The position numbers and the translations under genes were made by a program. From NCBI RefSeq assembly GCF_004010195.1, contig NC_057755.1:6665210-6723267 (forward strand): a stretch of 58,058 nt of DNA, read 5' to 3'. The DNA comes from Chiloscyllium plagiosum (Eukaryota). The notes beneath the pieces were generated by a model. It worked only from the letters and a program-made list of their open reading frames with translations. It was not told the DNA's origin and did not search any database. The stretch's first letter is position 1; every line of letters starts with the position of its first letter. Below, piece after piece: positions 20,001 through 52,895 of this stretch.

Positions 20001-23000
20001 TCTGCTCCTGACTCTATTATGAACTTACTTTCTTGGTATTGTCATATTATTTAAGGTAACATGGAATAGAGTGCCTGTGTTAATGCGTTAGGGTGTGTTT
20101 TGTTGTGTTAAAGCGTTAATTGGTGTGTAAGAGTGTGTTAGTGAGTATGTTAGTTTCCGTGTGTGTTTTATGGTGGGGCAAGGAGATTCAGTCTTCTATA
20201 ATCAAATGCAGTGAGTTCCTTGATGTGAAGTTTATACCTTGCCCACAAATTGGTCTGAAATTTCTCTGTACCCGCTAACTATTCTCTTTAAAATCGTTCT
20301 CAGCCAGAGAGACATGCATTGTTAATAGATGATCTATTAGTCTTCAGTAATCAAGTTCCATATCAATTAGAGGTGTGTTGACTTTATCCATTGTTTATTT
20401 GTTCCAGTATTATCCTCCCAGTTCGGTGTTTTCAGAACCCCCACTGGCAAAGATATTTATTACCTTGAACAACTGAGACCGTATCCTGCATGAAATTCGA
20501 TGGGCACAATTTTATTGTTATGTTTTTCTCTACTATAACCAGTGTCTGTTAAAAAAGAAACGGAGAGGGACAAGGGTGAACGTAGGGAAGAGTTGCTTTT
20601 AACCACTTCTCCCTGTTCAATCTTTGTCTCCAGAGCATTCGAGACTTTGTGAGCTGTTCAACGGTTCCTGATTTTCTAATGTCCTTTCTGACCCAACACA
20701 AGGGTGACTTGCTCAGGGCAAATTAATGATCAAAGCATGCAAAGTTTGCATCATTAGCCCTTTCAACTGTTTCAATTATACCTTCAACAAAGTTAATAAC
20801 TTTGGTCAATTCATGACCTTCCTTCTGAAAATTGAGGTAAACATGTTTCCCTATTGATATCGTCAGAATTATAATTTCGCCAGTTGTGCAACGCAAACTT
20901 GGTCATCACATCAGGTATTGCCAAGACTTTAATAACATGCAATTAACATTAAAATCTGAATTAATATATTTGCACCATTGCTGTATCTCCCTCGAATAAT
21001 TAGATCCCACTGACAAGCTTTGAGTTGAGCTTAATCAGTTAATGACTCTTGAAAAGAAAAATTGGATTTAGAATATTTATTTTACATTCCATTAACGTCG
21101 TGGTTCTGGAAAATGTTGAAGCAAGTGAATACCGAATTTGAAGCAATACCCAATTTCTGCCTTTTCCATGCCATGCATAACTCTGTGCAAGTCCTTTAAT
21201 ATTGCTCAGCTTTATTGTCTAAACTTTTTTTCTAAGTTTCATTGCAGCAGCAATTCAAGAACATTCCATATCAGAAGGCCATAACAAATAGAAACAGCAT
21301 TCGGCCATTCGGCCCCTTTAGCTTGCTCTGTCTTCGAATGGGATCATGGCTGATTGCTGGTTCCTCATGTCCATTTGCCTATCCTTTCCCCATAACCCTT
21401 GATTCCCCTCCTGACCAAGAATCTATCTATCTCAGTCTTAAATATACTTCAGTACACTGCCCTCTCAGCTGTCCCTTGGAAATGTAGTCACGAATCTAAA
21501 ACAATAAGCGTATGCCATGCACTTTCCAGTAATGACAAAGGATGGTCACCACACTCGATGATCAATGATGCTAATGCTCATGACAATTCAAAACTGTCGC
21601 TGTTACTGTCTAAATGAGTGAGACAAAGGATGCTTAATGACTTTTTTTTATCGTTAACCAGAACTGAAAGGAAACCAAGAAAGTTACAACGAATTATGAG
21701 CGATTCCTGTTCCTCTGTGGGCATGCCAGTCACCTTCGTCCTGTGATGATATTCCGTTTGTTCATTTTGGTGAATGGTGTATCTGTTATTCAGCTGCGTT
21801 ATCTCCTCATGAACACATAGAACATAGATCATAGAACATTACAGCACAGTACAGGCCCTTCGGCCATCGATGTTGCGCCGCCCTGTCTTACTAATCTGAA
21901 GCCCATCCATCTACACTATTCCATTTGCATCCATATGCCTGCCCAATGAAGACTTAAATGAACTTAAACTTGGCGAATCTACTACCACTGCAGGCAATGC
22001 ATTCCATATCCTTACTATTCTGCGAGTGAAGAAAGTACCTCTGAAATCTGTCTTATACATATCTCCCCTCACTTTAAAGCTGTATCCCCTCGTGTTTGCC
22101 TACCCATGCTTGGAAAAAGGTTCTCCCTGTCCACCCTATCTAACCCTCTGATTATCTTGTACGTCTCTATTAAGTCACCTCTCAACCTTCTCTCTAGCGA
22201 GAACAGCCTCAAGGCCCGCAGCCTTTCCTCGTAAGACATTCCCTCCATACCAGGCAACTTCCTAGTAAATCTCCTTTGCACCCTCTCCAAAGCTTCAACA
22301 TCCCTCTTATAATGCGGTGACCAGAACTGTACACTATACTCCAAGTGTGGCCGCATCAGAGCTTTGTACAGCTGCAGCATAACCTCCCGGTTCCAGAACT
22401 CAATCCCTCTATTAATACAGGTCAAAACACTGTATGCCTTCTTAACAACCCTGTCAATCTGGGTGGCAACTTTCAGGGATCTGTGTCCATGGACACCGAG
22501 ATCCCGCTGTTCATCTGCACTCCCTAGATACCTACCATTAGCCCAGTACTCTGCATTCCGATTACTCCATCCAAAGTGTATCACCTCACACTTGTCCACG
22601 TTAAATTCCATTTGACAACTCTCAGCCCAGCTCTGCATCCTAACTATGTCTCTATGCAACCTACTACATTCTTCATCACTATCCACAACTCCACCTACCT
22701 TAGAGTCGTCTGCAAATTTGCCAACCCACCCTTCTAAGCCCTCATCCAGGTCATTTATAAAAATGACGAACAGCAGTGGACCTAACACTGACCCTTGTGG
22801 TACGCCGCTACTAACTGGACACCAAGATGAACATGTTCCATCAACTACAACCCTCTGTTTTCTTTCAGTAAGTCAATTACTTATCCAAACTGCTATGTCT
22901 CCCACAATCCCATTCCTCCGCATTTTGCATAATAGCCTACAGTGGGGAACCTTATCGAACGCCTTGCTGAAATCCATATACACCACATCAACCGGTTTAC

Positions 23001-23353
23001 TCTCATCTACCTGTTTGTTCACTTTGTCAAAAACTCACTAAGATTCGTTAGGCACGACCTACCCTTCGCAAAACCGTGCTAACTGTCCCTGATCAGATTA
23101 TTCTTTTCTGGATGGTTATAAATCATATCTCTTATAATCTTTTCCAACACTTTACCAACAGCTGAAGTGAGACTCGCTGGCCTGTAATTACCAGGGTTGT
23201 CTCTACTACCCTTTTTAAACAAGCGAACCAAATTTGCTATCCTCCAGTCCTCTGGCACTATTCCTGCAGACAATGATGATTTGAAGATCAATGCCAAAGG
23301 CTCGGCATCTCTTCCCTTGCTTCCCAGAGGATCATATGATAGATACCATCTGG

Positions 23354-23406
23354 GATGGAAATGTGTTGCTGGAAAAGCGCAGCAGGTCAGGCAGCATCTA
23401 GGGAAC
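23354..23406 (-). mobile_element. 53-bp Penelope terminal-repeat fragment flanked by a 94-bp direct duplication
   Basis: gctggaaaagcgcagcaggtcaggcagcatc matches ~28318-28347; 23260-23353 is repeated at 23407-23500. Confidence 0.85.
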
Positions 23407-24295
23407 ATTCCTGCAGACAATGATGATTTGAAGATCAATGCCAAAGGCTCGGCATCTCTTCCCTTGCTTCCCAGAGGATCATAGGATAGATCCCATCTGG
23501 CCCAGGGGACTTGTCTATCTTCACATTCTGCAATAATTCCAATACCTCTTCCTTATGAACCTCAATTTCTTCTAGTCGAGATGAAAGTATCTCTGTATCT
23601 TCCTCGCCAGCATTGTCATTTTCTATGTTGAACACTGTTGAAAAATATTTATTTAGTGTTTCCCCTATCTCCTCTGCCTCCACACACAACATCCCATTAC
23701 TATCCTTTATTGGCCCTAATTTAACTCTTACTCCTTTTATTCCTGACACACCTATGGAAAGCCTTAGGATTAACCCTGATCCTATCCGCCAATAACTTTT
23801 CATGTCTCCTCCTGGCTCTTGAGTTCTCTTTTTAGGTCTTTCCTGGCTTCCTTGTAACCGTCAAGCTCCCTATCTGAGTTATCACATTTTGCCCTATCAT
23901 AAGCCTTCTTCTTCTTCTTGACCATAGATTCCACTTTCTTAGTAAACCACGGCTCCGTTCTATAACGTCCACCCTGTCTAACAGGTACATACTTATCTAG
24001 GACACACTGGAGCTTTTCCTTGAATAAGTTCCGCATTTTTAATGTGCTCATCCCCTGCAGTTTCCTCCCGAAATCTACGCTTCCTAAATCTTTCCTAATT
24101 GCATCATAGTTTCCCTTTCCCCAGCTGTAACTCCTGCTCGGTGGAGTACACCTATCTCTTTCCATCATTAAAGTAAACTTGACAGAATTGTGATCGCTCT
24201 CTCCAAAGTGCTCACCTACTTCTACATCTAACAACTGGCCAGATTCATTACCCAGTACTAAATCTAAAGTGGCTGCGCCCCTTGTAGACCTGTCT

Positions 24296-24382
24296 TGATT
24301 TTGCTGAAGCTCCTCGATGCAGATTTTGCTGAAGCTCCTCGATGTTGCCTGAACTGCTGTGCTCTTCCAACACCATTGATCC
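24296..24382 (+). mobile_element. 87-bp Penelope terminal-repeat fragment with a 10-bp TSD
   Basis: AGACCTGTCT at 24286-24295 and 24383-24392; body gatttt...ctcctcgatgttgcctgaactgctgtgctcttcc. Confidence 0.8.
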
Positions 24383-24885
24383 AGACCTGTCTACATACTG
24401 TGTCAGGAAGCCCTCCTGCACACAGTGGACAAAAACTGACCCATTTATAGAACTCGTACTGTAGTGTTCCCAGTCAATATTTGGATAGTTGAAGTCCCCC
24501 ATGACAACTACCCTGCCTCTCTCACTCCTATCGAGAATCATCTTTGCAATCCTTTTCTCTACATCTCTGGATCAATTCAGAGGCCTATAAAAACTCCCAG
24601 CATGGTGACTTTTCCTTTCCTGTTTCTAACCTCAGCCCATACTACCTCAGTTAATGAGTCCCCAAACGTCCTTTCTACAGCTGTAATATTGTCCCTGATC
24701 AACAATGCCACACCTCCCCCTCTTTTACCATCTTCTCTGTTCTTACTGAAACATCTGAATCCTGGAACCTGCAATAGCCATTCCTGTCCCTGCTCTATCC
24801 ATGTCTCTGTAATGGCCACAACATCGAAGTCCCAGGTACCAACCCACGCTGCCAGTTCACTCACTTTGTTTCGGATGCTCCGCGT

Positions 24886-25070
24886 GTAGATGTTGGGGAC
24901 AAGGAGTAAGTTTAAGGAAGGGTTAGAAAGAGTTTTGATGAGAAATGTGCTGCTGGGCTGTGGAGAGTTGGCCACAAAATGAGACCGAGATGAGATCAGT
25001 CATGACAGTAAAAAAAGGAACAGAATCGAGGGGCTGAATGGCCTCCCTCTGCTCGTAGTACTTATCTTCT
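24886..25070 (+). mobile_element. Decayed CR1 3' fragment
   Basis: tttaaggaagggttaga...agatcagtcatga...gagggctgaatggcctccctctgctc. Confidence 0.6.
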
Positions 25071-28297: not shown

Positions 28298-29871
28298 ACG
28301 TCAAGATTAGAGTATTGTTAGAAAAGCACAGCAGGTCAGGCAGCATCTGAGGAGCAGGAAAATCGACGTTTGGGGAAAATGCCCTTCATCAGGGATGAGG
28401 CTGGTAGCCTCAGTGGTGGAGAGATAAATGTGGCTGGGGTGAAGATAGCTGAGAGTACAATCGTTGGATGGAGATTGCGTAAAGGTAATAGGTCGGAGAG
28501 AAGGGTGGAGTGGATAGGTGGGAAGGAAGATTGACAGGTGAAGCGGGTCAGGTACGTTGCTGAGCTGGAAAGTAGAATTGGAGTAAGTTGTGGGGAGGGG
28601 AAATGAGGAAACTGGTGAAGTCCACTTTGATGCCCTATGGTTTAAGGGTTCCGAGGCCGAAGATGAGGCGTTATTCGTTCCAGGCATCGCGTGATAAGGC
28701 AATGGTGATGGAGGAGGCCTAGGATCTTCGTGTCTTCTGTATGTGAAATGTTCGGCCACGGGGCAGTGGGATTGATTGGTGTGGATGTCCCTGATATGTT
28801 CTCTGAAGTGCTCTTCGAGTAAGCGTCCATTCTCCCCAAGGTCGGCAGACAGTATTGGGAGCAACAGATACACTAAAGGACACGTGTGGAGGTGCAGGTG
28901 AAACTTTGATGGATGTGGAAGGCTCCTTTGGGGCCTTGGAAGGAGATGAGGTGGGAGGTGTGGGCACCGGTTTATCAATTCCTGTGGTGACAGGGGAAGG
29001 TGTTGGGAGGGGAGGGTGAGATGTTAAGGGGCGTGGACTTGACCAGGTATATGTGGATGAAACAGTCTTTATGGAAAGGGTATAGAAGTGGGGAGGGAAA
29101 TATATCACTGGTGGTGGGTTCCATTTGAAGATGGGAAACTTTTGATGGATGATGCAATGAATACAAAAGTTGGTGGGGTGGAAGTTCAGGACCAGGGGGG
29201 TTCTGTTTTGTTGTGGTTGGAGTTGTGGGGTTCGAGGGCAGAGGTGCAGGACGTGGATAACATGCGTTGGAGGGCATCCTCAACCCTGTAAGAGGGGAAA
29301 ATGGTGGCTTAAAAGTATTGGATGTGTTCTGTCGTGAAACTGGTCCCCCTGGGAGTAGACAAGGCAGAGGCAGAGGAATTGGGAATGGGGATAGTATTTT
29401 TGCAGGACGTAATGTGGGAGGAAGTGTAATCGAGGTAGCTGTGGGAGTCAGTGGGTTTATAGAAAATGTCAATGCTGAGTTGGTCACCATTGATGGAGAT
29501 GGAGATGTTCAAGAAAGGGAGAGAGGTGACAGATATGGTCCAGGTGAATCGAAGGTCGGGGTGGAATGTGCTGTTGAAGTTGATGAACTGTTCAACCTCC
29601 TCGTGGGAGCCTGAGGTGGCACCAATGCAGTCATCAATGTAGCAGAGGAAAAGGTGGGGAGTGGTGACGCTGCAATTCTGGTAGATGGGCTGTTCCATGT
29701 AGCTGACAAAGAGACAGGCATAGCTGGGCCCATGTGAGTGCCCATGGCTGCATCTTTCGTCTGGAGGTAGTGGCATGATTCGAAGGAGAAATTCTTGAGG
29801 GCGAGAACCAATTCAGCCAAACGAATAAGAGTGGCAGTGGAAGGATACTGGTGGGGACGTCGGGCGAGGAA
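28298..29871 (-). mobile_element. Penelope-like retroelement, 5'-truncated and frameshifted
   Basis: RT motifs AMGTHMGP / GPSYACLFVSYME / LCYIDDCI / LPFLNISI / IFYKPTDSHSYL; GIY-YIG-like GENGRLLEEHFREH...VAEHF; terminal repeat with a hammerhead relic at ~28360-28397. Confidence 0.9.
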
Positions 29872-31096
29872 GCTATTTTATGTAGCCGAAAAATGGTTAC
29901 ATGGGATTGAGGTTCACAAGGAGGAGGTGTTAGTAATTCTGTAAAGTGTGAAAATAAATAAGTCACCTGGGCCAGTTGGAATTTAAACTACAATTCTCTG
30001 GGAAGCCATGGAGGGGATTCCCGAGGCTTTGGTTTTGATTTATGTGTCAGCGTTGTCTGCAGGAATAGTGCCAGAAGATGGGAAGTTTGGAAATGTTGTC
30101 CACTTGTTCAAGAACGGGAGTAAACAGAATCCTAGTAATTATAGACCAGTGAGCCTTACTTCGGTTGTAGGATAAGTGTTGAAAAAAGTTATCAGAGATA
30201 GGACTTCTAATTAACTAGAAAGAGTTAAGCTGATTAGGGATTGTCAAAAGGATTTTATGAAGGGTAGGTCGTGCCTCACAAACCTTATTGAGTGCATTTA
30301 GAATGAGACCAAACAGGTGGATGAAGGTAAAGCTGTTTATTTGGTGTATATGGATTTCAGTAAGGCGTTTGTTACGTTTCCCCATGGTAGGCTATTGCAC
30401 AAAATACGGAGGCATGGTATTGGGAGTGACTTAGCGGTTTGGATCAGAAGTTGGCTCGCTGAAACAAGACAGAGGGTGGTGGTTGATGGGAAATGTTCAT
30501 CCTGGAGCTCTGTTACGAGTGGCGCACTGTACTGATTTATTTTGGGTCCACTACTGTTTGCCATTTTTATAAATGACCTGGATTAGGGTGGAGAAGGCTG
30601 GTTTATTAAATTTGCGGATTACACTGAGGTCGGTGGAGCTTTGGATAGTGCAGAAGGGTGTTGTAAGTTAGAGAGGGAAATGCATAAACTGCAGAGTTTG
30701 GCTGAGACGTGGCAAATGGAGGTTAATGCGGAAAAGTGTGAGGTGATTCACTTGGGAAGGAGCAACAGGAAAACAGGGTATTGGGCTAACGGTTAGATTC
30801 TTGCTGGTGTAGATAAGCAGAGGGATCTCGGTGTGCATGTAATAGATCCCTGAAAGTTGCCACTCAATTTGTTCGGTTTGTTAAGAAGGCATACTGTTAT
30901 TAGCTTTTATTGGTAGAGGAATTGAGTTTAGGAACCACGAGGTCATGTTGCAGCTGTACAAAACTCTGGTGCGGCCACACTTGGAGCATTGCGTACAATT
31001 CTGGTCACCTCATTCTTGGAAGGATGCGGAAGCTTTGGAAAGGGGTCAGAGTCGATTTATGAAGATGTTGCTTGATATGGAGCGAAGGTCGAATGA

Positions 31097-31613
31097 GAAC
31101 ATAGAACATAGAACATTACAGCGCAGTACAGGTCCTTCAGCCCTCGACGTTGCGCCGACCTGTCATACCAATCTGAAGCCCATTTAACCTACACTATTCC
31201 ATGTACGTCCATATGCTTGTCCAATGACGACTTAAATGTACTTAAAGTTTGCGAATCTACTACCATTGCAGGCAAAACATTCCATGCCCTTACTACTCTC
31301 CGAGTAAAGAAACTACCTCTGACATCTGTCCTTTCTCTGTCACCCCTCAATTTAAAGCTATGCCCCCTCGTGCTTGCCGTTACCATACATGGAAAAAAGC
31401 TCTCCCTGTCCACCCTATCTAACCCTTTGATTATCTTATATGTCTCTATTAAGTCACATCTCAACCTTCTTCTCTCGAACGAAAACAGCCTCAAGTCCCT
31501 CAGCCTTTCCTGGTAAGACCTACCCTCCATAGGTCCTAGTAAATCTCCTCTGCACCCTTTCTAAAGCTTCTACATCCTTCTTATAATGCGGTGACCAGAA
31601 CTGAACAAAATAC
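31097..31613 (-). mobile_element. Younger CR1 3' end nested antisense in the host CR1
   Basis: MEGRSYQERLRDLRLFSFERRRLRCDLIETYKII...; (ATAGAAC)n tail; same subfamily as the 21816 element. Confidence 0.92.
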
Positions 31614-33077
31614 AGGAAAGGCTCGGATACTTGAAGCTGTTTCTGTTAGAGGGAAGGTTGAGAGGCGACTTAATTGAGACATATAAGATAATCAGAGAGT
31701 TACATAGGGTGGGTAGTGAGTGCCCTTTTTCTTCAGATGGTGATGGCTAGTCGAAAGGGCAGAGCTTTAAATTGAGGGATGGCAGATACAGGACAGATGT
31801 CAGAGATAGTTTGTTCCCTCAGAGAGTAGTCGGAGCATGGAATGAACGACCTGCATCAGTGGTAATAGACTCTCCAATATTAACTGTATTTAAATGATCA
31901 TTGGATAGAAATATGAACGAAAATGGAATAGTGTAGGTTAGATAGGTTTCTGATTGGTTTCACAGGTCGGAGTAACATTGAGGCTGAAGGGCCTGTACAG
32001 CGCTGTAATGTTCTATGTTCTATGTAGTATAATCAAAATAATGCAGCATTTACAGGAGGTAAAGCAAACGGACAAGGAAAGGTATATTCAAAATTCGTAG
32101 CATTCAAGAATCTGTTGATACTACTTTTAGGAAAGGTAAAATGAAACAACTTTGATAGTCGGCACTTTGAAACAGAAAGATATGATGATAATGCTCAGCC
32201 ATCTCCCATTAGGAGGGGAATAAGGATTGTTTATAATTTTGGGCAACCCGACTGATATATGACGTCAAAGATGCGTCAGTGAAGTCGGTCAGTGAGTTAC
32301 TTAATATATCAAAGATCAAGGCAAGGTGGGAAATGAATAAACGATTAACATAAGACCTAATGCAAGTATTGAAAATGATGAGGATTTTTGATGAGCAATT
32401 ATTTTTGCTGACATTTTAGAACACAAAAACGAAAACGATTGAAATTAGATGATTTTAAAACACTGTTTTCCCAGTAGACACGAGGCGACAGATGATATTT
32501 TAACCTGAAGTTCACCTTGTCTCAGATGAGAGGAGCGGGTCTAAAGGAGAGTCCTTCATGGTAACCTCAGTCAAACACACTGTTCACATCACTCAGCAGG
32601 CACAAACCAAACGCCTCCTCTGTAAATTTAGGTGAATTCAATTCACTTCAGGTTCACCCTCCACATTTGTATCCCGTTGCTACCTGTTAATTTATTTTAT
32701 CTTTGAAACTATTCTGTTGCGTTGGTTCTGTTGATAGAATGATTTCTAACAGGGAGTCACAATGGGAGATTATACTGACACTTGGGCACTGGAATGAATT
32801 GTATCATACCCGATTAATTACTTTTCCTCTTCAATCAGGAGAATGACTGGTAAATTTCCCACCACGGTCGTATGTAGCAAATAATGGAAAATGAAATATT
32901 TGAACATTTTATATTACCTGGTAGTATTTGCATTGCAAGTCACAACACCTTCTCTACGACTAGCTTCATCATTTTAACAACAAGATCTCTCTCAGATCAG
33001 GCTTAACTTTTTTAATTTCTATAGTAATTAATCTCTCGCTAGGTGGAACCACCAAATCATTTTCCACCCACTGAGAG

Positions 33078-33560
33078 AGTTATAGAGCTGGACAGCATGG
33101 AACTATTCGTTTCGGTCCAGGACATCCATGCTGACCAGATATTATAAATAAAAAAATCAATTTGCCAGCACTTGGCATATATCCCTTTAAAGTATTTCTT
33201 TTTATATTCCCAATCCAGTTGCCTTTCAAATGTTTTACTGCACCAGCCTCCACCACTTCCTCTGGCAGCTCATTCCATACATGCTCTACCCTCTGCATGA
33301 AAAGTCCCTGCCGCTTAAGTCCCTTTTAAATTTTCCCCCTCTTCACCCTAAATCTGTGCCCTCTAGTTTTGGACTCTGCTAACCTGGGGAAATGACCTTA
33401 GCTATTCACATGATTTATGACCCTCATGATTTTATAAATCTCTATAATTTCAGCCTTCAACCTCCAATACTCGAGGAAGCATGTCCCATTCTATTCATCC
33501 TCTCCCTGCAGCTCAAAACCTCCAACCTGAGCAATACGCCCATGCATCTCTTCTTAGTTT
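33078..33560 (-). mobile_element. Decayed CR1 3' fragment
   Basis: QRVEHVWNELPEEVVEAG. Confidence 0.8.
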
Positions 33561-34588
33561 TCCAATAGCAGGCTTGAAAGAATATACATTTGATCCTTAA
33601 AACTGAGATTCTATTTTCTGTACCTCTGCTTTCTTGTTATTGAAGTCGAGGCCAGAGCCTGAATTAATATTTGGGTTGCATGTGCTGCTGAAGTATTATG
33701 CCTGTTAAAGATACACCAGAAAGTTCAGTTTGTGCTGTGATTTTCCAACTTATTATCAACGTATTTAAGGTTCAGAGAGTAGGATCGTAGTTCTAAGAAT
33801 CAAATGAATGTTCTTTGGATCCTGCAGAATGTTTTCTCCATGTATCTGCATCATCTGAAACCAAGAAAGCAACAATCTCCTGTGACAATGATGATCCAGA
33901 TTGTAGAAACAGCGTAAGCAAGGTGACCATTTAATCGCATCTAGTGTGTTTTTCTTTTTCAGTTATTCCTTAATATTCCCACTTGTCTGTCTGTCTTGGT
34001 GTTAGAGTACCGGCTATAATTAAGGAATGTTGGGGTTAAAAAGAAACCATTAGTTAGATCATTTTGCTGCTGAAAATTGCTCTGCTTAGGTTAATATATT
34101 GGTAACGAATTGTTTAGCCTTTTGTTTGAGGGATAGACTTCATATATGGTATTGATTATTCAAAAAGTCTAATGCTGGTGATTCAAAGAATATGTTTGGG
34201 AACCATTGGCATCACTTTTGTGAGACACTGAGCATTTTAATTTTCCTGCATAGTAAATACAAGTACCTGTATAGCGAAACTGATTTGATTTGGCTGTCAG
34301 GCTTTGTATCTGAGCAAATGCAACCTGTTCTAAGGACAACTTCCATAATGAATTTTCAATAAATTGAAAGCAATTCACTGGAAGATGCTGGAAACAAGCC
34401 AAAATATCAGTCACTCCATTCTGAGTATTCAGGGATTTGTTATCCAACTATGAACTTTCCATTACTCATATGAGAAAAAACATTGCATGGAATTCTGTGT
34501 CGTAAACGTCTCCACATTTCATCCCAAAAGTTGTAGACTTTTGTTATAATTGATTCCCTTTTATGATTTTCATTCATTTAACTCACAG

Positions 34589-35598
34589 CAAACCTGATGA
34601 CAATGATAATTCTCTCCATGGGAAATTGCAGCCTTTCCAATTGTACCTCTGCCTACATGGTGGCCATGACAACAGCAGTTTTACTGGTCTTGATCTTAAA
34701 CATAACTGTGTTTCATATTGTCAGTGATCACTTTCCACATTCGGACCTTTCTTACACTGGGTTTTGTAAGTTCCTTAATTATACGAGCTCAACCAACCTG
34801 TTCTTTTCAGTGTGGTCCACAGTCTTGTTCACATTTGATCGATATGTAGCTATATGTTGTGAGAGGCTGAAAAGAAAATATTGCAGAGCGAGGACAGCGT
34901 CTGCAGTTATAATGATCACCACTGCCCTGGTTTGCCTGGAGAACATACCCTTTTTATTTGCATTTGAACCTCAAAAAGTAACTGTTCATTTACAGTAGGG
35001 TTGTCACAATAAGTTGAACTTCTTCACTTCGCCATTAGGTTTAGCATTCTCCCAGTTGCAAACTGCTTTTGTTGTTTGGCTTCCGTTATCTTTACTGTTC
35101 ATATTTAATTGTTTGATCATCAGACGTATTGTAGTCGCCAATAGATCTCGCAGAGCTGTCTGGGGACGAAATACTGGGAGTCAAGAGACCCAGAGATGGA
35201 AAGTCGAAAAAGGTCCATGATTTTATTCTTCACTATATCCGGAAGTTTTATTCTTCTCTGGCTGACAGCTGCTGTGAGCTTTTTATGTACGAGGATTACA
35301 AATACTACACACTATCGTGGTGATTACACAGCTCCTGCCTACATTGCCACTGAAGCGGGCTACCTGCTCATGTATTTGAGTTCATGCAGTAACGTGTGTA
35401 TTTGTACAGCCACACAAAGGAAATTCAGGGAAGAACTTTCGGAGGCAGAGGAATACAAAGGAGCTGGAGGTAGTGTTTACTTCCTGTTAAACATTCGTCG
35501 ACTGACCAAACCCAGAATTAATGGCCAAGGAAGTGATGACATTCCCTTGGCCATTAATTCTGGGTTTGGTCAGTCGACGAACGTTTAACAGGAAGTAA
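34589..35598 (+). pseudogene. GPR139/GPR142-like class A GPCR pseudogene, main exon (end of TM1 to C-terminus)
   Basis: Acceptor ...aactcacag at 34588. Protein motifs: NLMTMIILSMGNC...YMVAM, SVWSTVLFTFDRYVAICC, ENIPFLF, DPEMESRKRSMILFFTISGSFILLW, TQRKFREEL. Lesions: TAG at 34996-34998, a frameshift near 35170-35190, and an 88-bp insertion at 35439-35526. The upstream exon was not located. Confidence 0.88.
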
Positions 35599-35643
35599 AC
35601 ACTACCTCCAGCTCCTTTGTATTCCTCTGCCTCCGAAAGTTCT
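35432..35643. repeat. Near-perfect inverted repeat: 99-bp arms, 14-nt loop, one mismatch
   Basis: 35432-35530 is the reverse complement of 35545-35643 except at position 35493. Confidence 0.97.
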
Positions 35644-36923
35644 AATGAGCAGAAGTAAAGTCCCTTACACTTTACTTTCTCTATGTCCAAACTGGATACT
35701 TCAAGAAAGAGTGAGAAGTGTTCAGTTATATACCATTTCTCACGAATGATGTTTTGTCAGTTACTCGTATCAATGAAATAAAACAAGTCAAATTTGTTAC
35801 ATTATGTGGGCACCATTCAAATCGTCTTGAAATGAATTGGGTGGATTCTACTCTAATAAATCCAGATCCTCTCTTCTCATCTCAGTTCATTGCTCTTTCC
35901 AGCTGACGCGTCCATCTCAAACCCGCCCTCTCTGCAGCCACACTGAATCTCAGAGTCATCTCAATCAATGTGGGAGTAGCTGATGATCCCGTGGAACTAT
36001 AGCGCCTTAGGGATTATAGGGATTTTTGTGAATGAGTGCATGAGGCTGGGAATGATGCAGATGAATTTTCTTTAATGGAGCAGAGTATAATAAAGATAAA
36101 CATGATTGCCACAGACGATTCCATCTGAAATTTAATAATTGCAGGAATTATGCTTCTAGCAGCAAATTATGTGTACTGTCATGTAAAGATAATTTGAATG
36201 GTGCTCACACACTGGAACACGAGCAGAATAGATTGCTGAAACATTCCGCAAACAGATGTGGGGACTATTTAGTCACAACTATTCGTTGGAGTGTACTCTG
36301 TTAGCTTTCTCCTGGCATCGCAAGTTATGAATGCTCAGCCTGCCTCAATAAAAGTGACTCATGGGCTGTATAAATGTGAGGTTTGCGATGGCCCATTGTT
36401 CCTAGTAGTAAGTTTCATGCATTACAGCCCTTGAGTGTTCAGAGTCGGCAGTATACAAGTGGCATGAAAATGACCCGAGTTTGCAAAAGTGAGGACATAA
36501 CTCGAAGTCATAGGATATTCTGTAATTGAATAGCTCTGAAGGAACAATGCCAAGTATGCCATATATTATATTAATTTCAGATTTATGGTTCTCTGGAAAC
36601 CAGTCAATGTGACCAATTGTTCTTGCTGGAATCTTTTCAAACATAAACATCCTCTCTGCAAATAAAAATGAAGATGTCCATCCTGGCAATATTGTGCCAT
36701 CACGAAAAGAACATTGGATGGTAGATTTCATTGGGACTCTCCATGGTAATACATGAACCATGCAGATCACAATTTTCAGTTTGGCAGCGACACGTTCCAA
36801 TGTTGTCAGGCGAAGGCACAGTGGTGTTAAACTGTTTATCTCGTCCCCAAGGGACTCTTCTGGGAATTTGAATCAAAATCACACTGCAACAAATGGTGGA
36901 AAAGAATTCAATGACAAATGTGG

Positions 36924-43400: not shown

Positions 43401-46400
43401 TCCTGGTGAAATTATCCTGTGTGGGAAATTTGCTCATGCTACTCGGGTGGGTTTAAATTAGCTCAGCATGGGAATAGGACCTGTGGTGTATTTCCAGTGC
43501 ACAGCAGAATGCGAGTATGGAGGACATGGAAAGGATTTCACGGTCAAAGGAGTGCGGTGGCAGACAGCTGGCTTGCCTGAAGTGTGTCTACTTCACCGGT
43601 AGGAATATCCAGAACAAGGTGGGTGAGCTTGTAGCATGGATAGTTATTTGGGACTTCAATGTTGTGACTATTTCGGAGACATGGATAGAACAGGTTCAGA
43701 TTTGGATGTTGCAGGTTCCAGAGTTTAGATCGTTCATCAAGATCAGAAATGGTGGCATAAGCGAAGGAGGTGTGGCGTTGATAGTCAAGGACAGTGAAAC
43801 GGTGGCTGAAATAACTTTTGACGAGGCCTCATCTGCTGAGGTGGTATGGGCTGAGTTGAGAAACAGGCGAGGAGGGGTCACACTGCTGGGAGATTGTTTA
43901 TAGGCCTCTGCAGAGTTTCATGGATGTGGAAGAGTGGATTGGCAAAGCGAATCTGGGTAGGAGGGAAAGGAACAGGGTGGTCATTACGGGGGACTTTAAC
44001 TTCACCAAGCTTGACTGGAAATTGTATAACTTCCTAGTACGTCGGATCAATCCATTTTTGTCCAGTTTGTGCAAGAGGGTTTCCTGACACAAATATTTCA
44101 AGGAGCAGACGAAACTGGATGCCACACTGGATCTGGTGCTTGGTAATGAACCAGGCCAGGTGTTTGATTTAGTGGTAGGTGAGCACTTTGGAGAGAGTGA
44201 CCATAATTCAGTTACGTTTAGTTTAGCGATGGAATGGAATACTAACATGCCACTGGGCACGAGTTATGGATGGAGGAAGGACAATTATAATGCGATTAGG
44301 CAAGAAGTAGGAGGCATAGAATGGGGTCGTAAAGTGCAGGGGATGGGGACAATCGAAATGTGGAGCTGGTTTAAGAAACCGATACTGCATGTCTTTGACA
44401 TGTGTGTCCCTGTCAGGCAGGGATGAAGAGATAACGTAAGGGAGCAGTGGTTTAATGAAGAAGCTGCATCTCTTGTTAAGTGGAAGATGGAGGCTTATGT
44501 GAGGTTGAGATGAGATAGTTCAGATGAGGCGATTGAGAGTTATACATTAGCTGGTGAGGACTGATAAAGAGAGTTAAGAAGAGCAAGGCAGGGACATGAG
44601 CAGTCTTTAGCTGGTAGACTAAAGGAGAACCTGAAGCTTTCAACTGATATGTGAGGAATAAGAGGATGGCTTGGTCGGGGAAAAGGCCAGTCAAAGTCAG
44701 AAGTAGGAATTTGTGTGTGGACCCCGTGGAGATCAGAGAGGTGCTAAATGAATATTTCTCATCTGCTTTCACTCAGGAAACGGAGAATACTGTAGTAGAG
44801 AAGGCTGAGATACCAGACCAGAAGTCTGAGATATCAGACCAGAAGGGATAGAGGTGTTATCAATTCCAGAAGGTGTGGAAGTAGATAATTCACCTGGGCC
44901 AGAAGGGATTTATCCGAAGATTCTCTGGGAAACTAGGGACGAGATGGCGGAGCCGTTGGTCTTGATCGTTGAGTTGTCCTGTCTACAGGTTTAGTAGCAG
45001 AGGACTGGAGGATTGTAAATGTTGTGCCCATGTTTAAGAAGGGCAGTAGAGATGATCCAGGAAATTATAGACTAGTGAACTTTACGTGTGTTTTAGAAAA
45101 CGTTTTGGATAGGATTATAAGAAATAGGACTTATAATCATCTAGCAAGCAAAAATTGGATTGGAGATAGACAACATGGTTTAGTCAAGGGCAGGTCGTGT
45201 CTCACAAACGTCATTGAATCTTTTGTAAGGTGACCAAGAATGTGGATGAGGGTAGGACAGTTGACGTGGTGTAGATCGCCTTTATTAAAGCCTTTGTTCA
45301 GGTTCCAATAATAGGCTTTTGGAGAAAATCTGGATGCATAGGATTGAGGGTGATTTAGTTGTTTTGATTAGAAACTGTCTTTCTGTATGAATGCAGCGAG
45401 TGGTGGTTGATGTAAATTATTCAGTCTGGAGTCCGGTTACTAGTGGTGTGCCACAATGATCTGTTTTGTGACCACTGCTGTTTGTTATTTTTACAAATGA
45501 CTCGGACGCAGGCAAAGGTCGATAGGTAAGTTACATGCAGATGACTAAAGTTGGTGGAGTGGTAGACTGTGTGGTAGAATGTTGCAGGTTGCAGGGAACT
45601 TGGATAAACTGCAGAATTGAACTGAGAGGTGGCAAATGGAGTTCGATGCAGACAAATTTGAGGTGATTCACTTTGGGAAGATGAACAGGAAAGCAGAATA
45701 TTTGGTCAACGGAAAGATTCTTAGCAGTGTAAATGTGCAGAGAAATATACATAGATCCCTGAAAGTTGTCACCCAGGTTGATAGTGCTGTTAAGAAGGCA
45801 TGCTGTGTGTTAGGTTTTATCCGTAGAGAGATTGAATTCCGGAGCTGTGCTGTCATGCTGCAACTGAAAAAAAATACTAGTGCGGCCTCACTTGGAAGAT
45901 TATGCACAGTTCTGTTCACCCCATTATCGGAACGATGTGGAAGCATGGGAAAAGGTGCAGAGGAGATTTACCAGGTCGTTTCCTAGTCTGAAGGGAAGGT
46001 CTTAAAAGGAAAGCCTGAAGAACTTGTGTCTGCTCTCATTAGACAGAAGAAAACTAAGAGGGAATTTAATAGAGACACTCAAGACGATCAGAGGATTACA
46101 TAACGTGGACAGTCAGAGTTTTTTTCTAGGAGGATGACATCTGTGTGTATGAGGGGGCAGAGCTGCAAATTGAGGGGTGATAGATTTCAGACAGATGTCA
46201 GAGTTAGGTGTTTTACTCAGAAAGTGGTAAGTGAGTGCAATGCCCTGCCTTTCCATGCAGTTAACTCAGCCACATTAGGGACATTTAGACAATCCTTGGA
46301 TACAAATATGGATGATGATGGGATAGTGTAGGGGGGTCAGTTTAGATTAATTCACAGCTCGGTGCCACATCAAGGGCCAAAGGGCATGTTCTGCGCTATA

Positions 46401-46414
46401 TTGCTCTATGTTCT
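43401..46414 (+). mobile_element. Decayed CR1 LINE (end of ORF1 region + ORF2) inserted in the 29-bp satellite
   Basis: LKCVYFTGRNIQNK...ISETW, GEHFGESDHNSV, KKGSRDDPGNYR, MEFDADKFEVIHFG; tail ctatgttcta; possible TSD CTAAATG at 43394-43400 and 46413-46419. Confidence 0.92.
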
Positions 46415-49165
46415 AAATGGGGGAACTGGTTCAGTTTAGCTTTAAAAGTAAAAGGTTTGGGGCAGGGTAGCACTAAATGGGAGAAATTGTGCAGTGTTGC
46501 ACTAAATGGCAGAATTGGTGCAGTGAAACAAAAAATTGAAGAAATGGAGCCGTGTTGTACTAAATGAGAGAATTCGTGCAGTGTAGCACTAAATAGGAGA
46601 ATTGGTTCAGAGTAGCAAGCAATGGGACAATCGGAGTAATGTAGCACTAAATGGGAGAACTGGTGCAGTGTTGCACAAAATGGGAGAATTGGTACAGTGT
46701 AGCAAGACATGGGAGGATTAGGGCACTGTATCACTAAATGAAAGAATTGGTGCACTGCAGCTCTAAATGGGAGAATCAAAGCAGTGTTGGACTAAGTGGA
46801 AGAATTTGTGAAGTTTAGCACTAAATGGAAGATTTTGTGGAGTGTGGTACTGAAATGGATAATTGGGACAGCGTAGCACTAAATGCGAGAATTAGTGCAG
46901 CGTAGTACTAAATGGACCAATCGATGTAGTGCAGCTCTCAATGGGAGAATCGATGTGATGTAGCACTAAAAGGGAGAATTGGGGCAGCATAGCGCTAAAT
47001 GGGAGAATTGGTGCAGTGGACCACGATATGGGTAAATTGGTGCAGAGTAGCATCAGATGGGAGAATTGGTGCAGTAAAGCTTTAAATGGGTAAATTGGGA
47101 CTGTGTAGCACTAAATGGGAGAGTTTGTGCTGTGGTGCACACAACGAAAGAATTGAGGCAGCGTAGGAAGAATTATGAGAATTCTGGACATGTAGTATGA
47201 AATGGGAAAATGGATGCACGGTAGCACAGTATGGGTGAAATGGTGCAGCCTTGTACTAATGGTAGGATTAGTGTAGAGTATCACTAAATGATATAATTTG
47301 TGCTGTGTCACACTAAATGGTAGACATGATTCAGTGTAGCACTTAACTGAAGAATTTTTGCAGGGGAGCACTAAATGGATGAATTGGACTAAATAGGAGA
47401 ACTGTTGCAGACTGGCAATAAATGTAAAAATTGGTGATGTGTAACACTAATGGTAAATTGGTGTCGTGTAGCAATAAAAGGGAGGATTGGGGCAATGTAG
47501 AAGTAATTCGGAGAATTGGTGTGGAGAGAGCACTAAATGGGAGAATCGAGGCCATACAGCAGTAAATGGGAGAATTGGTGCACTGTAGCAATGAGTGGGA
47601 CAACTGGTGCAGTTTCGTACTAAAAAGGAGAATTTGTGTAGTGTCGGAATAAATGGGAGAATTGGGGCTGAGTAGCATTAAATATGAGAATTAATGCATA
47701 GTAACACTAAATTGGAGAATTCGTGCTTGGTCGCACAAAATGGGAGAATTGAGGCAGTGTAGTGCTAAATGGGAGAATTGGTGTAGTGTGGCACTCTATG
47801 GCAGAATTGGTCGCAATAAGTGGAAGGATTGGAGCAGCGGAGCAATCAATGGAGGAATTGATGTAGTGTTACACGAAATCGGAGAATTGGTGCAGTGTTA
47901 CACGAAATGGGAGAATTGGTGCAGTGTAGAGTAAATGGGAGATTTGGTTGAGTGTAGCAATAAATAGGAGAATTCCTGCAGTGTAATACTAAATGGGAGA
48001 ACTGGTGCAGTGTTGCAATAAATGGGAGAATTGGTGCAGTGCAGTACTAAATGTGAGCATGACTGCACTGTAATGTGAATTGTGAGAATTGGTACAGTAT
48101 AATGTTAAATGGAAGTGTTCGTTCAGTGCAGTACTAAAAATTGAGCATTGGTGCAGTGTAGTACTAAATGGGAGAATTGGATCAGTGCAGTGGTAAATGG
48201 CAGAATCGTTGCAGTGTACTGTTAAATGGGAGAATTGTTTCAGTGTAGTACTAAAAATGGAGAACTGGTTAAGTGTACCAAATTGCTGCAGTGTAGTACT
48301 GAATGGGAGAAAAGCTGCAGTGTTGGACTAATATCCAGTGCAGTATAGCGGGAAGTGCAAGAATTAGTGCAGTGCAGCACTAAGTCGGAGAATTGGTACT
48401 GTGTAGCAATAATTGGTAGTTTTGGGTCAGTGCAGCACTAAATGGGAGAATTGAGGCATTGTAGCGATAAGTAGGAGAATTGGTGCAGTGTTGCACGGAA
48501 TGGAAGAATTGGTGCAATTTAGCAATAAGCTGGAGAATTGATGAAACGTGGCAATAAATGGGACAATTTGTGTCGTGCAGCAATATATGGGAGTAGAGTC
48601 GCAATAATTGGAATTGGGCTCGTGTAGCACGAATTGGGAGAATTGGTTCGGTGTAGCAATAAATGGAAGAATTGGTGCAGTGTACCCCTAAATGGGAGAC
48701 CCGATGCAGATTAATACTAAATTGGAGACTTGGGGCATTGTAGCAATAAATGGGAGAATTGGTGTTGCATAATACTAAATGCGAGTATCAGGGCTGCGTA
48801 GTCAAAATGGGGGAATTGTTGCAGTGCATTTTTGAAATGTGGATTTGAGGCTGGGTAACAATAAATATGAGATTTTGTGCAGTGTTGCGCTAATTGGCAG
48901 AGTTGGTGCAGTGTAACACTAAATTGAGGAAATGGTGCAGTGTTGTACTAAATAGGCAATTTGGTGCAGAGTAGCGCGAAATGGGAGAATTGGTGTCATA
49001 TAGCAATAAACAAGAGAATTAGTGCAGTGTAGTACTAAAGAGGATAATTTGTGCAGTGTCGCACTAAATGGGAGAATTTTAAAAGGGAGAATTGCGGCAG
49101 TGTGGCACTAATTGAAAAATTGCGGCAGTCTGTACTAAATTAGATGATGAATGCAGTGTAGTATC

Positions 49166-49827
49166 TGTTATGGACTAGGCAACACCACTCACAACTTTCT
49201 TAAGCAGGCAGCGAAGGCCATAACTTTGTTTCAATAAGTGTACAGTAAAAATTACCCGTTTTAAGTTAGCTAGGTTGACTACTAGATATTAAAAATACTC
49301 ACACAATTACACAACGAAACCCAAAGAACAGAATAAATAACCTCGTACAAAACTCACTCTATCCAAACTAGACTTAATTATGCTGTTCCGAACATGCACA
49401 ACAGTCCTAAAAAGCAAACACACTTTAAAACCCAGTACAAACGGAACACATGCTTACAGGTTGAAATTGACGGGCAAAAAGAAAGAGAGAGGGAGAGGGA
49501 GAGAGAGAGGGGAGAGAGAGAGAGAGATAGTTTCCACGCAGCTCACAGATGAAAGCCTCACCAGCTCAAGAGTGAACTAAACTGCTCAGCTAGAGAACTG
49601 ACCACTCCCTTTTCATTATGCATATCACTTCAGAGACATGACCACTTTGGCAAAAGTCTCATCTGTTTATATGTAAACTAAAGGCGTCTCAAAATCCTTT
49701 TCATCTCTGTACCAAATCAGTCTGATCGGAGCCCGGCCTGGTTTATTCTACGTCTGAAATAATCAAGGACAGAGTATACTTGAGAGAAGAAACACCTTTT
49801 AGAAAAAAAGGGACTAGCTTTTTGACT
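49166..49827. mobile_element. Probable solo LTR (~660 bp) in the satellite
   Basis: Starts TGTTA and ends TTGACT (TG...CA with one change). The satellite phase resumes with a likely 4-bp TSD (tatc/tacc). Internal (GA)n at ~49483-49527. Confidence 0.65.
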
Positions 49828-52800
49828 TACCAAATGGGAGAATTGGTGCAATGTAGAACTAAACAGGAGAGTTGGTGCAGAGTAGCAATAAATGGGACAA
49901 TAGTATCAGTGTGTCTTTACATGGCAGAGTTAGAGCAGTGTAGCCTCATTTTGGGAGAACTGGTGCAGGACAGCAATAAATAAGAGAAATGGGACAGAGC
50001 AGAACTAAATGAACGTGTTGGCGCTGCGTAGAACTAGGTCTTGTAGAAGTAAACAGCAGAATCGGTGCAGTGTAGTGCTAAATGAGCAATTTAGCGCAGG
50101 GTCACACTAATAGCAGAATTGGCACAGTGTAGCAATAAATGTGAGGATTCGGGCACTGTAGCACTGAATAGGAGAATTGGTGCAGTGCAGTTCTAAACGG
50201 GAGAATTCAGGCATTGTAGGACTAAATGGAATAATTGGTGCGGTATGCAACTGAAAGGTAGAATTGGGCTAGTGTCGTACCAAATGGGCAATTTGTGCAG
50301 TGTAGTACTAAATGGAGTAATGGGTGCAGTGCATCACTAAATAGGAGAATTGGTGTAGTGTAGTACTAAAAGGGAGAATTACAGCAGGGTAGCAATAGTT
50401 AGGAGAATTGGTGCAGCGTAGCAATAAATGGAAGAATTGGTACAGCAAAGCACTGAAAGGGGGAATAGACAACGTGTATCACTAATTGAGAGAATTGGTG
50501 CAGTGTTGCAATGAATGGGAGAATTGGTGCAGTGTGGAACTACATGTTAGAATCGGTCCAGAGTCATACTAAATTGGAGACTTGAGGCAGTGTAGCACTA
50601 AATGGGGGAAACTGGTGCAGTGTAGCTTTAAAAGGTAGAATTGGGCAGGGTAGCACTAAATGGTCGACTTGGTGCAGTGCAGCACTAAATTGAAGAGGTC
50701 GTGCAGTATTGTTTTAAATGGTGACATTCATGCAGTGTAGTCTGAGAGTTGGTGCAGAGTAGCAATGAATGGGACAAATGGTGAAGTGTCACACTAAATG
50801 CACTAAATGGAAAAATTGATACAGTTTAGCAATAGAAGGGAGGAATGGGGCACTGTATCACGAAATGGGAGAATTGTGCAGTACAGCTCTCAATGGGCGA
50901 ATTAAGGCAGTGTAGGACTAAGTAGAAGAACCGGTGCAGTGTAACACAGAATGGAAGAATTGATGGAGTGTGGTGCAGAAAGCGATAATTGAGACGGCGT
51001 AGCACCAAATGGGAGAATTGGTGCAGTGTAGTACTAAGAGGGAGAATTGGGACTGGGTAGCACTAAATTGGAGAAATTGTGTAGTGCGGCAGTAAGAGGG
51101 ACAATTGGTGCAGTGTGACTGTATAAAGGAGAATTGGGGCAGTATAGCACTGAATGGGAGAAATGGAACAGTGTATAACTAAACACGAGAATGGGTGCAG
51201 TGGGGCAATAAATGAGAGAATTGGTGCAGCGTGCCTTTAAATGGGAGAATTGATGCAGTGTAGTAATAAATGGGAGAATCAGTAGCATTAAACGGGAGAA
51301 ATGGTGCAGTTTCGCATTAAATGGGACAACTGGTGCAGAGTGGCAATGAGTGGGACAATTATTGATGTGTTGCACTAAATGGGAGAATTGGTGCAGAGCA
51401 GCACTAATTGGTAGAATTGAGGCTATATAAGGCAATTGGTTCTGTGTAGCACTAAATGGAAGAATTGTGCAGTGTAGAACTCAGTGGTACAACTGCCGCT
51501 GTGTAGTACTTAAAATGAGAATTTGTAAAGTATTATAATAAATGGGAGAATTGAGGCTGCGGCGCAGTAAATGATAGAATTGGCACAGTGTAACATTGAA
51601 AGGTGGAATTGGTGCAGTGGAGCACTTAATGGGAGAATTGAGGCATCGTTGCAGGAAATGAAAGAAATGGTGCTGTGTAGCATTAATTGGGAGAACTGGT
51701 GAGGTGTAGAATTAAATGGTAGCATTAGTGTAGTGTGGTACTAAATGCGTGAAATGGTGCAATGTAGCACAAAATGGGAGAATCAGAACAGTGTGGCACT
51801 CAATGGACGATTTGGTGCAGTGTTGCACTGAATGGGAGAATTGATGCAGTCCAGCACTAAATGGGAGAATTAGCACAGTGTAGCACTAAATGGGAGAACT
51901 GGTCCATTGTTGCAATAAATCAGAAAATTACTGTGGTGCAGTACTAATAGGGAGATTTGGTGCACTGTAATGTGAAAAGAGAGAATTAGTACAGTATAAT
52001 ACTAAATGGGAGTATTCGTCCAGTGCAGTACCGGAAATGCAGTATTGATGCAGTATAGCACTAAATAAGAGAAATGATACAATCTAGTACAAAACAAGAG
52101 AATTGAATGAGTGTAGTACTAAATGGAAGAATTGTTGCAGTGTGATAATAAATTGGAGAATTGGTTCAGTGTGATAATAAATGGGAGAATAGGTTCAGCG
52201 TAGTATTAAATGGGACAATTGGTGCACCATATCACGAAACGGGAGAATTGGTCAGGATGGTACTAAATGGGTGAATTAGTGAAGTGCATCATGAAATGGG
52301 AGAACTTGTTTACTGTAGTGCTAAATGGGAGAATTTTTACAGTGTACTACTAAATGTGACAATTGGCACAGTCTAGTACCAAATTGCAAAAAAAAAAAGA
52401 TGCACTGTAGCATGCAATGAGTGAATTGGTGCAGAGTAATGTTAAATTGTAGAACTGGTACATGGAGTACTGGACAGGAGAATTGGTGCAGTGTAATATT
52501 AAATGAGTGAATTGTGGCAGTGTAATGATAAATGGGAGAATTGGTACAGTGTATTAATAGAAAAAGGAGAACTGGTGCAGTGTAGCAATAAATGCGAGAA
52601 TTGATACTGTGCATGACTAACTGCAAGAGTTGGTAGTGTCAGATGAAAAAGAGAGAGTTAGTGCACTGTAGCTCTAAAGGGAAAAGGTGCCACTGCGGCA
52701 TAGAAATTGGAGAAATTGGGATTGTAGCACTAATTTGCAGAATTGGTGCAGTGGAGCAATAAATGGGAGAATTCGTGCAGTTTAGCATTTAATGGTAGGA

Positions 52801-52895
52801 TTGGAGCAGTGTTGCACTAAATGTGAGAATTGAGGCAGTGCAGCACTAATTGAGAAAATTGGTGAGGTGTAGCACTAAATGGAAGAACTGGTGCA

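What the first reader, a model, noticed from the sequence alone, without database searches (positions are those of the whole stretch)
35432..35643. 99-bp-arm palindrome created by an inverted template switch in the GPCR C-terminus
Seen: removing 35439-35526 (88 bp) restores an in-frame ending KFREEL-KEVMTFPWPLILGLVSRRTFNRK* (TAA at 35596-35598). The removed piece is an inverted copy of downstream coding and 3'UTR sequence, with microhomology at both joints (AGAACTT with AAGTTCT; AAGG with CCTT). Inference: a replication template-switch or microhomology-mediated event. The single arm mismatch suggests it is recent or maintained by conversion.
Basis: partly seen in the sequence, partly recalled or inferred. 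Interest (0 to 1): 0.7.

Follow-up and report, generated by a model that had tools for sequence, protein, structure and literature searches.

The report
Fold-back insertion in dead shark gene
A DNA-copying slip pasted a reversed 89-letter copy of nearby sequence into an already broken shark receptor gene, making a long hairpin that a related species lacks and that one other animal of the same species seems to have deleted again; this is a large, clean example of a known kind of mutation.

Summary
Observation confirmed: 99-bp arms (35432-35530 / 35545-35643), one mismatch, 14-nt spacer. The left arm is the newcomer. Two runs of a sister organism (93-97% alike) join 35437 to 35527 with a single G, and 106 of 112 homologue tails match the sequence resuming at 35527. 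So 89 inverted bases replaced one base, between 6-bp and 4-bp microhomologies: a '1-4-3-2/3-2-1-4' template switch, at the long end of published sizes. The host is a shark 'GPR139-like' pseudogene with a TAG at 34996 and a frameshift near 35182. The sister organism shares the frameshift, so the gene was already dead. The one mismatch is a CpG transition; conversion is not needed. One run of the window's own species has a contig skipping 35360-35601 at a 6-bp repeat, removing the hairpin: probably a second, hairpin-provoked deletion, possibly a library slip. Only contigs were laid, so no read spanning both arms was seen and support for the insert in the species' own data is indirect (artefact about 10%). 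Known mechanism, likely neutral; modest interest as a birth-and-loss case.

The parts
35432..35530 (.). Left arm of the palindrome (99 bp): outer homology + new inverted tract + inner homology
35438..35526 (-). Inserted tract, 89 nt, reverse complement of 35549-35637; replaces one base (G in the sister organism)
   Evidence: tables 5 and 5c (X12, X13 join 35437 to 35527 with G)
35432..35437 (+). Outer microhomology (6 bp), pre-existing, complementary to 35638-35643
   Evidence: (sister organism matches up to 35437)
35527..35530 (+). Inner microhomology (4 bp), pre-existing, complementary to 35545-35548; weak pre-existing stem with the spacer (-2.0 kcal/mol)
35531..35544 (.). 14-nt spacer (loop), original coding sequence, not inverted
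35545..35643 (+). Right arm = original sequence (last 17 codons, stop, 45 nt of 3' flank); donor of the copy is 35549-35637
35493..35493 (+). Single arm mismatch: CA in the left arm where the right arm predicts CG, i.e. a CpG transition
   Evidence: that it arose in the new copy is inferred
34589..35598 (+). Second exon of a rhodopsin-class 'GPR139-like' pseudogene (acceptor AG 34587-34588; original stop TAA 35596-35598)
   Evidence: acceptor read
34996..34998 (+). Premature TAG where 112 of 120 aligned homologues have Trp
35182..35183 (+). One-base frameshift (paralogue contigs have an extra A here; the sister organism's orthologue contig has no gap, so it shares the shift)
   Evidence: tables 4 and 8 (records 14, 22)
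35360..35601 (.). 242 bases skipped in one contig of run X5 (same species), removing the left arm, loop and 57 bp of the right arm; 6-bp direct repeat at 35360-35365 and 35602-35607
   Evidence: tables 2, 5, 8 (record 32)

Best explanation
A single replication template switch in the germ line of the window's lineage. In one version the nascent minus strand, having passed 35643 to 35527, folded back: its last 4 bases paired with their complement 14 nt away, it copied 89 nt of itself (35549-35637), then re-annealed to the proper template at the 6-bp match 35432-35437, losing one base. The mirror version is a jump of the plus strand to the opposite template at the 6-bp match and a return at the 4-bp match. 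The two give the same product and cannot be told apart from sequence. SHOWN: the hairpin, which arm is new, the empty site, the two homologies, the broken host gene and the frameshift shared with the sister organism. INFERRED: that it happened at a replication fork, that the mismatch is later CpG decay, that it is neutral, and that the 242-bp skip in X5 is a later deletion provoked by the hairpin (about 0.55 for a true allele caused by the hairpin, 0.3 for a library slip across the hairpin, 0.15 for an unrelated 154-bp deletion of the empty allele).
For: Empty site in X12 and X13 (two studies), on single-copy-depth contigs that run 271 nt into the 3' flank at 93% identity (records 15 and 23). 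Empty site also in an 87% paralogue contig of X1 (record 7). Homologue tails: 106 of 112 score better against the 35527 frame, 5 better against the inserted frame, 1 tie. Chance of 6-bp and 4-bp homologies at random breakpoints about 3e-5 (crude). The switch-point order matches type 1-4-3-2/3-2-1-4, 31% of high-confidence human-chimp events (PMC5453318, passages). For the insert being in the species' own reads, indirectly: X1 alone of 4 runs has depth inside the insert (3.18 over 35439-35505), which equals a contig of depth 9.3 ending at 35461, where a k=31 graph predicts the left-junction unitig to end (X1 single-copy depth 9.6-11.5). Neither X1 nor X5 lists a near-identical empty-site contig like those in X12 and X13. 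The mismatch is a CpG transition, the usual germ-line decay (my knowledge), not the exact copy expected from an in-vitro fold-back.
Against: No listed record shows the insert junction or the loop directly; 495 records were not shown and only contigs were laid. X1 has 0 records that fit two places, although an unsimplified graph of the palindrome predicts arm-only unitigs that would. X1's depth in 35506-35572 (21.8) is fitted as well by contigs that all start at 35527 (31.7 x 46/67) as by any loop-spanning contig. The 3.18 depth could also come from another short piece. X5, from a different study of the same species, shows no cover of 35439-35601 at all. The ancestral G rests on the sister organism and its paralogue loose ends; X1's paralogue has another base there. 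PMC5453318 argues that switches are mostly inter-strand, which weighs against the fold-back version.
Confidence: 0.65

Rival explanations
1. Same product, made during break repair: a break at the junction, snap-back synthesis from the 4-bp stem, then end joining through the 6-bp match (polymerase-theta-type, synthesis-dependent microhomology-mediated end joining; recalled, not read here).
For: Identical geometry; near-zero net loss (one base) at the site and microhomology at both joints. Fold-back priming at microhomologies is discussed for palindrome junctions in PMC4057610 (passages).
Against: 89 nt is long for such inserts (my recollection). Replication-type events of this size are on record: max 128 nt in great apes (PMC7954356), 97-180 bp per human individual (PMC9435742).
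Confidence: 0.2
2. The left arm is an artefact of library making or assembly (a local fold-back), and the animal really has the empty site.
For: No spanning read was seen; no arm-only record in X1; no cover of the insert in X5. Palindromes are hard to amplify and sequence (PMC4057610, passages).
Against: If the site were empty, X1 should hold a near-identical contig across 35437/35527 and on to about 35713, as X12 and X13 do; none is listed although shorter pieces are (table 8). X1 has depth inside the insert. The sequence returns to the forward strand at a clean homology, and the arms differ by a CpG transition. The X5 skip is most easily explained if the hairpin exists.
Confidence: 0.1
3. 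The hairpin is kept intact by arm-to-arm conversion or by selection for a double-stranded RNA function.
For: 98 of 99 pairs intact. Template switches have founded miRNA stems (PMC10710096, part 1 of 6 read) and pseudogene hairpins can give endogenous siRNAs (PMC3616710, passages).
Against: Sister-organism divergence is 66 of 1377 aligned letters (4.8%), so even an insert as old as the split would show 1 or fewer mismatches with P = 0.074, and a younger one needs no conversion. No first exon was found upstream on the plus strand. One conspecific run appears to have lost the hairpin. All 7 Rfam matches are far below their gathering scores.
Confidence: 0.05

Closest known systems
Short-range template-switch mutation, four-point model type 1-4-3-2 / 3-2-1-4 (PMC5453318; PMC7954356; PMC9435742)
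   Same: [quoted passage not shown]
   Different: Size: 89 nt against a great-ape median of 12 and maximum of 128; it is an almost pure insertion; it is in a shark. No difference in kind.
Ripley-type quasipalindrome correction (as described in PMC5453318)
   Same: Uses short pre-existing complementary stretches as switch points.
   Different: Here no near-perfect inverted repeat pre-existed (only 6-bp and 4-bp matches); a whole arm was created rather than corrected.
Inverted-repeat-induced deletions with microhomology at the junction (PMC12686595; review PMC7999016)
   Same: The X5 skip removes the hairpin centre and joins at a 6-bp direct repeat, one copy outside and one inside the stem.
   Different: Seen in one contig of one run; those papers describe somatic reporter or model-organism events, mostly larger; germ-line status here is not shown.
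Template-switch-born miRNA stems and pseudogene hairpin siRNAs (PMC10710096; PMC3616710)
   Same: One event creates a perfectly paired stem in a gene-derived sequence.
   Different: The stem is 99 bp, far beyond the ~35-bp miRNA stem; no transcription shown; no promoter or first exon found.
Cartilaginous-fish 'probable G-protein coupled receptor 139' paralogues (rhodopsin class, PF00001)
   Same: 60-62% identity over TM1-TM5 and about 70% over TM6-TM7 to whale shark, zebra shark and bamboo shark proteins.
   Different: This copy has a premature stop, a frameshift and the insert. The name is the databases' automatic label; orthology to mammalian GPR139 was not tested.

Membership tests
Template-switch mutation type 1-4-3-2/3-2-1-4 | Inserted fragment is the reverse complement of nearby sequence | tested here: met
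   88 of 89 bases complementary to 35549-35637
Template-switch mutation type 1-4-3-2/3-2-1-4 | Ancestral sequence lacks the fragment and is collinear on both sides | tested here: met
   X12 and X13 join 35437 to 35527 with one base; homologue tails 106 of 112
Template-switch mutation type 1-4-3-2/3-2-1-4 | Order of switch points 1, 4, 3, 2 along the reference; spacer not inverted | tested here: met
   leave at 35437, return at 35527, donor 35549-35637 downstream; spacer keeps the homologue-like frame
Template-switch mutation type 1-4-3-2/3-2-1-4 | Present in raw reads of the organism (not an assembly error) | tested here: inconclusive
   indirect support in X1 contigs, no spanning read seen
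Template-switch mutation type 1-4-3-2/3-2-1-4 | Arose at a replication fork rather than in break repair; intra- versus inter-strand | not testable with these tools
   products are identical; PMC5453318 calls the two orders indistinguishable mirror cases
Ripley quasipalindrome correction | A near-perfect inverted repeat exists before the event | tested here: not met
   only 6-bp and 4-bp matches in the empty site; inner stem -2.0 kcal/mol
Rhodopsin-class GPCR pseudogene (shark GPR139-like) | Homology to PF00001 and to the family | tested here: met
   Pfam E 1.9e-10, 41.1 bits over cut-off 30.5; E 8e-73 to nearest protein
Rhodopsin-class GPCR pseudogene (shark GPR139-like) | Disabling lesions independent of the insert | tested here: met
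   TAG opposite Trp in 112 of 120; 120 of 121 homologues need two frames; X1 and X5 contigs match the window exactly over 34938-35270
miRNA / endogenous siRNA hairpin gene | Match to a described family | tested here: not met
   7 Rfam matches, all below gathering score (best 68.8 against 99)
miRNA / endogenous siRNA hairpin gene | Transcribed and diced into 21-22-nt RNAs | not tested
   no RNA run was laid

The most novel reading that the evidence does not exclude
One template switch turned the tail of a dead receptor gene into a 99-bp double-stranded RNA source (it folds whichever strand is transcribed, for example by read-through from the first exon at 57799 on the minus strand), yielding small RNAs against the many 'GPR139-like' paralogues, and the hairpin allele now segregates with a deletion allele that removes it. 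That would be a de novo regulatory hairpin caught between birth and loss. The weaker half, a three-state series (empty site, hairpin, hairpin deleted) without function, I put at about 0.5 with interest about 0.35.
Probability: 0.04. Interest if true: 0.6.

Novelty: new member of a known kind. Interest (0 to 1): 0.24.

Why it matters
The mechanism is known and the host gene was already dead, so the biological effect is probably nil. Its value is as a clean, large natural example outside mammals, with the ancestral state in hand and both switch points readable. If the X5 skip is a true allele, the locus holds birth and loss of a long palindrome within one species, which gives a direct field test of how long a 99-bp-arm, 14-nt-spacer hairpin lasts in a vertebrate germ line and how it is removed. 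It is also a caution for annotation: the insert leaves an open 49-residue tail that could be taken for a new receptor C-terminus if the upstream breaks were missed.

Tried and rejected
Own genome search: no genome held, so paralogue DNA and a genome-wide count of such hairpins could not be had. Right arm as the newcomer: rejected, since homologue tails and sister-organism contigs follow 35527 onward. A new functional C-terminus: rejected, gene broken upstream. Known RNA family: 7 sub-threshold Rfam matches, taken as generic long-hairpin scores. First exon on the plus strand: none in the window with a profile from 62 homologue N-termini; a frameshift-tolerant scan of 32000-34600 peaked at 2.0 bits, below the controls (2.3-4.6), and my candidate near 34400-34450 scored 1.4, so it was dropped (crashed). 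Depth bookkeeping for X1 over 35506-35572 could not separate a loop contig from paralogue contigs. Whether the sister organism shares the TAG at 34996 could not be read (290 difference rows not shown). Earlier findings: none near, none by words. Literature: no paper on this locus or on the shark expansion among the 4 that hold 'GPR139', 'shark' and 'expansion' (listing only); no close report of a switch-born palindrome with a later deletion allele among 15 of 26 listed (listing only); a search on PCR slips across hairpins gave 1 irrelevant paper; PMC3519483 (passages) added nothing. Searches were used for listings only. No supplements were read; Supplemental Figs S1 and S3 of PMC5453318 (event types, lengths) may bear on the size comparison.

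Full report
1. The observation. Positions 35432-35530 pair with 35643-35545 at 98 of 99 places; the exception is A35493 opposite C35582; 14 bases lie between the arms. The strand folds at -132.6 kcal/mol, z -28.5 against 200 shuffles, and no other close inverted repeat in the window comes near it.

2. The host. The palindrome sits at the end of a rhodopsin-class receptor exon (Pfam 7tm_1) whose nearest proteins are shark sequences labelled 'probable G-protein coupled receptor 139', 60-62% identical; a second search gave 129 relatives, 120 listed, nearly all from sharks and rays. The exon is broken twice before the palindrome: a TAG at 34996-34998 where 112 of 120 aligned homologues have Trp, and a frameshift near 35182 (120 of 121 homologues need two frames). 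Contigs of two runs of the window's species match the window without a difference over 34908-35270 (X1) and 34938-35270 (X5), so both breaks are real (records 4 and 31). No first exon was found on the plus strand.

3. Which arm is new. Of 121 homologues held, 115 could be anchored at the end of helix 7 and 112 had tails of 12 or more residues; 106 of these 112 resemble the frame starting at 35527 more than the frame running into the left arm, 5 the reverse, 1 tie. At DNA level, 17 runs hold part of the region; I laid 4. Runs X12 and X13, of a second organism and from two studies, each have one contig at single-copy depth that joins 35437 to 35527 with a single G between and continues 271 bases into the 3' flank at 93% identity (tables 5, 5c, 8). 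Four orthologous pieces of X12 differ at 66 of 1377 letters. Paralogue loose ends behind 35437 in both runs also begin with G, and an 87% paralogue contig in X1 also skips the tract. So the left arm is the addition: best read as 89 bases (35438-35526, the reverse complement of 35549-35637) in place of one base. The pre-existing matches are 6 bp at the outer joint and 4 bp at the inner; two such matches at random breakpoints have a chance near 3e-5 (crude).

4. Order of events. The sister organism's contig over 34952-35256 aligns without a gap in both runs (records 14, 22), while paralogue contigs in all four runs have an extra base at 35182 (table 4). The frameshift is therefore older than the split, and the insert, absent from the sister, fell into a gene that was already dead. 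One mismatch in 89 bases gives an age of about 0.23 of the split (95% range 0.006-1.3); even at the full age P(1 or fewer) is 0.074. Conversion is not needed. The mismatch is CA for CG, a CpG transition; that it struck the new copy is inferred.

5. Is the insert in the animal? Support is indirect. For: X1 alone has depth in the bin wholly inside the insert (3.18), which is what a depth-9.3 contig ending at 35461 would give, and 35461 is where a simulated k=31 graph ends the left-junction piece; X1 and X5 list no near-identical empty-site contig; X1's listed long pieces stop at 35270 and resume at 35713. The contigs are simplified graphs (PMC12424806, passages), which may remove such pieces. 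I leave 10% for an artefact.

6. A second event. Run X5 (same species, another study) has no cover over 35439-35601 and a 519-base contig that joins 35359 to 35602, then matches the window exactly to 36096 (record 32). The 242 skipped bases are bounded by a 6-bp direct repeat, one copy 72 bases before the left arm and one inside the right arm. In the simulation a contig begins exactly 24 bases before this joint only if the unskipped path also exists there (other allele or paralogue), and runs unbroken through 35643 only if the arm pieces are absent or were pruned. So X5 fits a true deletion allele, or a polymerase slip across the hairpin during library making with drop-out of the hairpin allele; a deletion of the empty allele cannot be excluded. 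Inverted repeats are known to provoke deletions with junction microhomology (PMC12686595, passages; PMC7999016, passages), and palindromes are under-represented in amplified libraries (PMC4057610, passages). It is one contig in one run.

7. Mechanism. Leaving at 35437, copying 35637 back to 35549 from the other strand, and resuming at 35527 is switch-point order 1-4-3-2, the mirror of 3-2-1-4, which makes an inverted repeat and was 31% of high-confidence human-chimp events (PMC5453318, passages). In the mirror reading the nascent minus strand folds back on a weak 4-bp stem (-2.0 kcal/mol), copies itself and rejoins at the 6-bp match. That paper holds the two indistinguishable and favours inter-strand switching in general. 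Snap-back synthesis during break repair gives the same product (recalled). I put replication switching at 0.65, break repair at 0.2, artefact at 0.1, functional upkeep at 0.05.

8. Compared with what is known. Great-ape events have a median copied length of 12 and a maximum of 128 (PMC7954356, passages); human individuals carry maxima of 97-180 bp in unmasked sequence (PMC9435742, passages). At 89 nt this one is long but within range. It is not classic quasipalindrome correction, as no near-perfect repeat pre-existed. Switch-born miRNA stems (PMC10710096, first of 6 parts read) and pseudogene hairpin siRNAs (PMC3616710, passages) show that such hairpins can gain function, but nothing here points to it: Rfam matches are all sub-threshold, no promoter exon was found, and one conspecific seems to lack the hairpin.

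9. Verdict. A real-looking, well-resolved, large template-switch insertion in a shark pseudogene: a new member of a known kind, probably neutral. Interest 0.24, raised a little by the possible deletion allele that would complete a birth-and-loss series.

Noticed in passing
window 57799-57731 (-) and 18403-18344 (-): Two first exons of the same receptor family (49.5 and 35.9 bits), each followed by a GT donor, point leftward on the minus strand, yet no minus-strand second exon lies in the window, and the plus-strand second exon at 34589 has no plus-strand first exon. A local inversion, lost exons or a mis-oriented contig could explain it.
   Followed up: partly
window 56530-57029: 500-N scaffold gap; GC skew is +0.44 just left of it and -0.21 just right, so orientation across the gap is not assured.
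   Followed up: partly
window 34302-34445: A 144-bp stretch matched by many contigs at about 90% in all four runs; some of them skip 123-168 bases to rejoin near the acceptor (tables 2, 5, 8). A conserved intron-end element of the family, with extra sequence in this copy that the sister organism shares.
   Followed up: no
window 35550 and 35578: The sister organism's orthologue lacks one base at 35550 in X13, and two X1 paralogue contigs have an extra A at 35578 (table 4): further decay of the tail.
   Followed up: no
window 35795-35835 and 36179-36219: A 41-nt, 80% inverted repeat; X1 shows two low-depth strand-changing joints at 35805/36237 and 35836/36152, probably from a dispersed repeat.
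   Followed up: no
protein hits: Dozens of divergent paralogues per shark or ray species carry the label 'probable GPR139'; none of the 4 papers holding GPR139, shark and expansion appears to treat this expansion (listing only).
   Followed up: partly
window about 4900-17500 and 44000-57200: Long degenerate tandem-like arrays that leave many overlapping open frames and strong strand skew.
   Followed up: no
window 10648-11190, 12064-12477, 22069-24999, 28307-29877, 31189-31560, 43478-45986: Broken reverse-transcriptase and endonuclease-like frames; they look like CR1-type LINE and, at 28-30 kb, Penelope-type fragments (labels recalled, not tested).
   Followed up: no
window 31099-31124: A second, short close inverted repeat (7 matching 20-mers), beside a retroelement fragment.
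   Followed up: no
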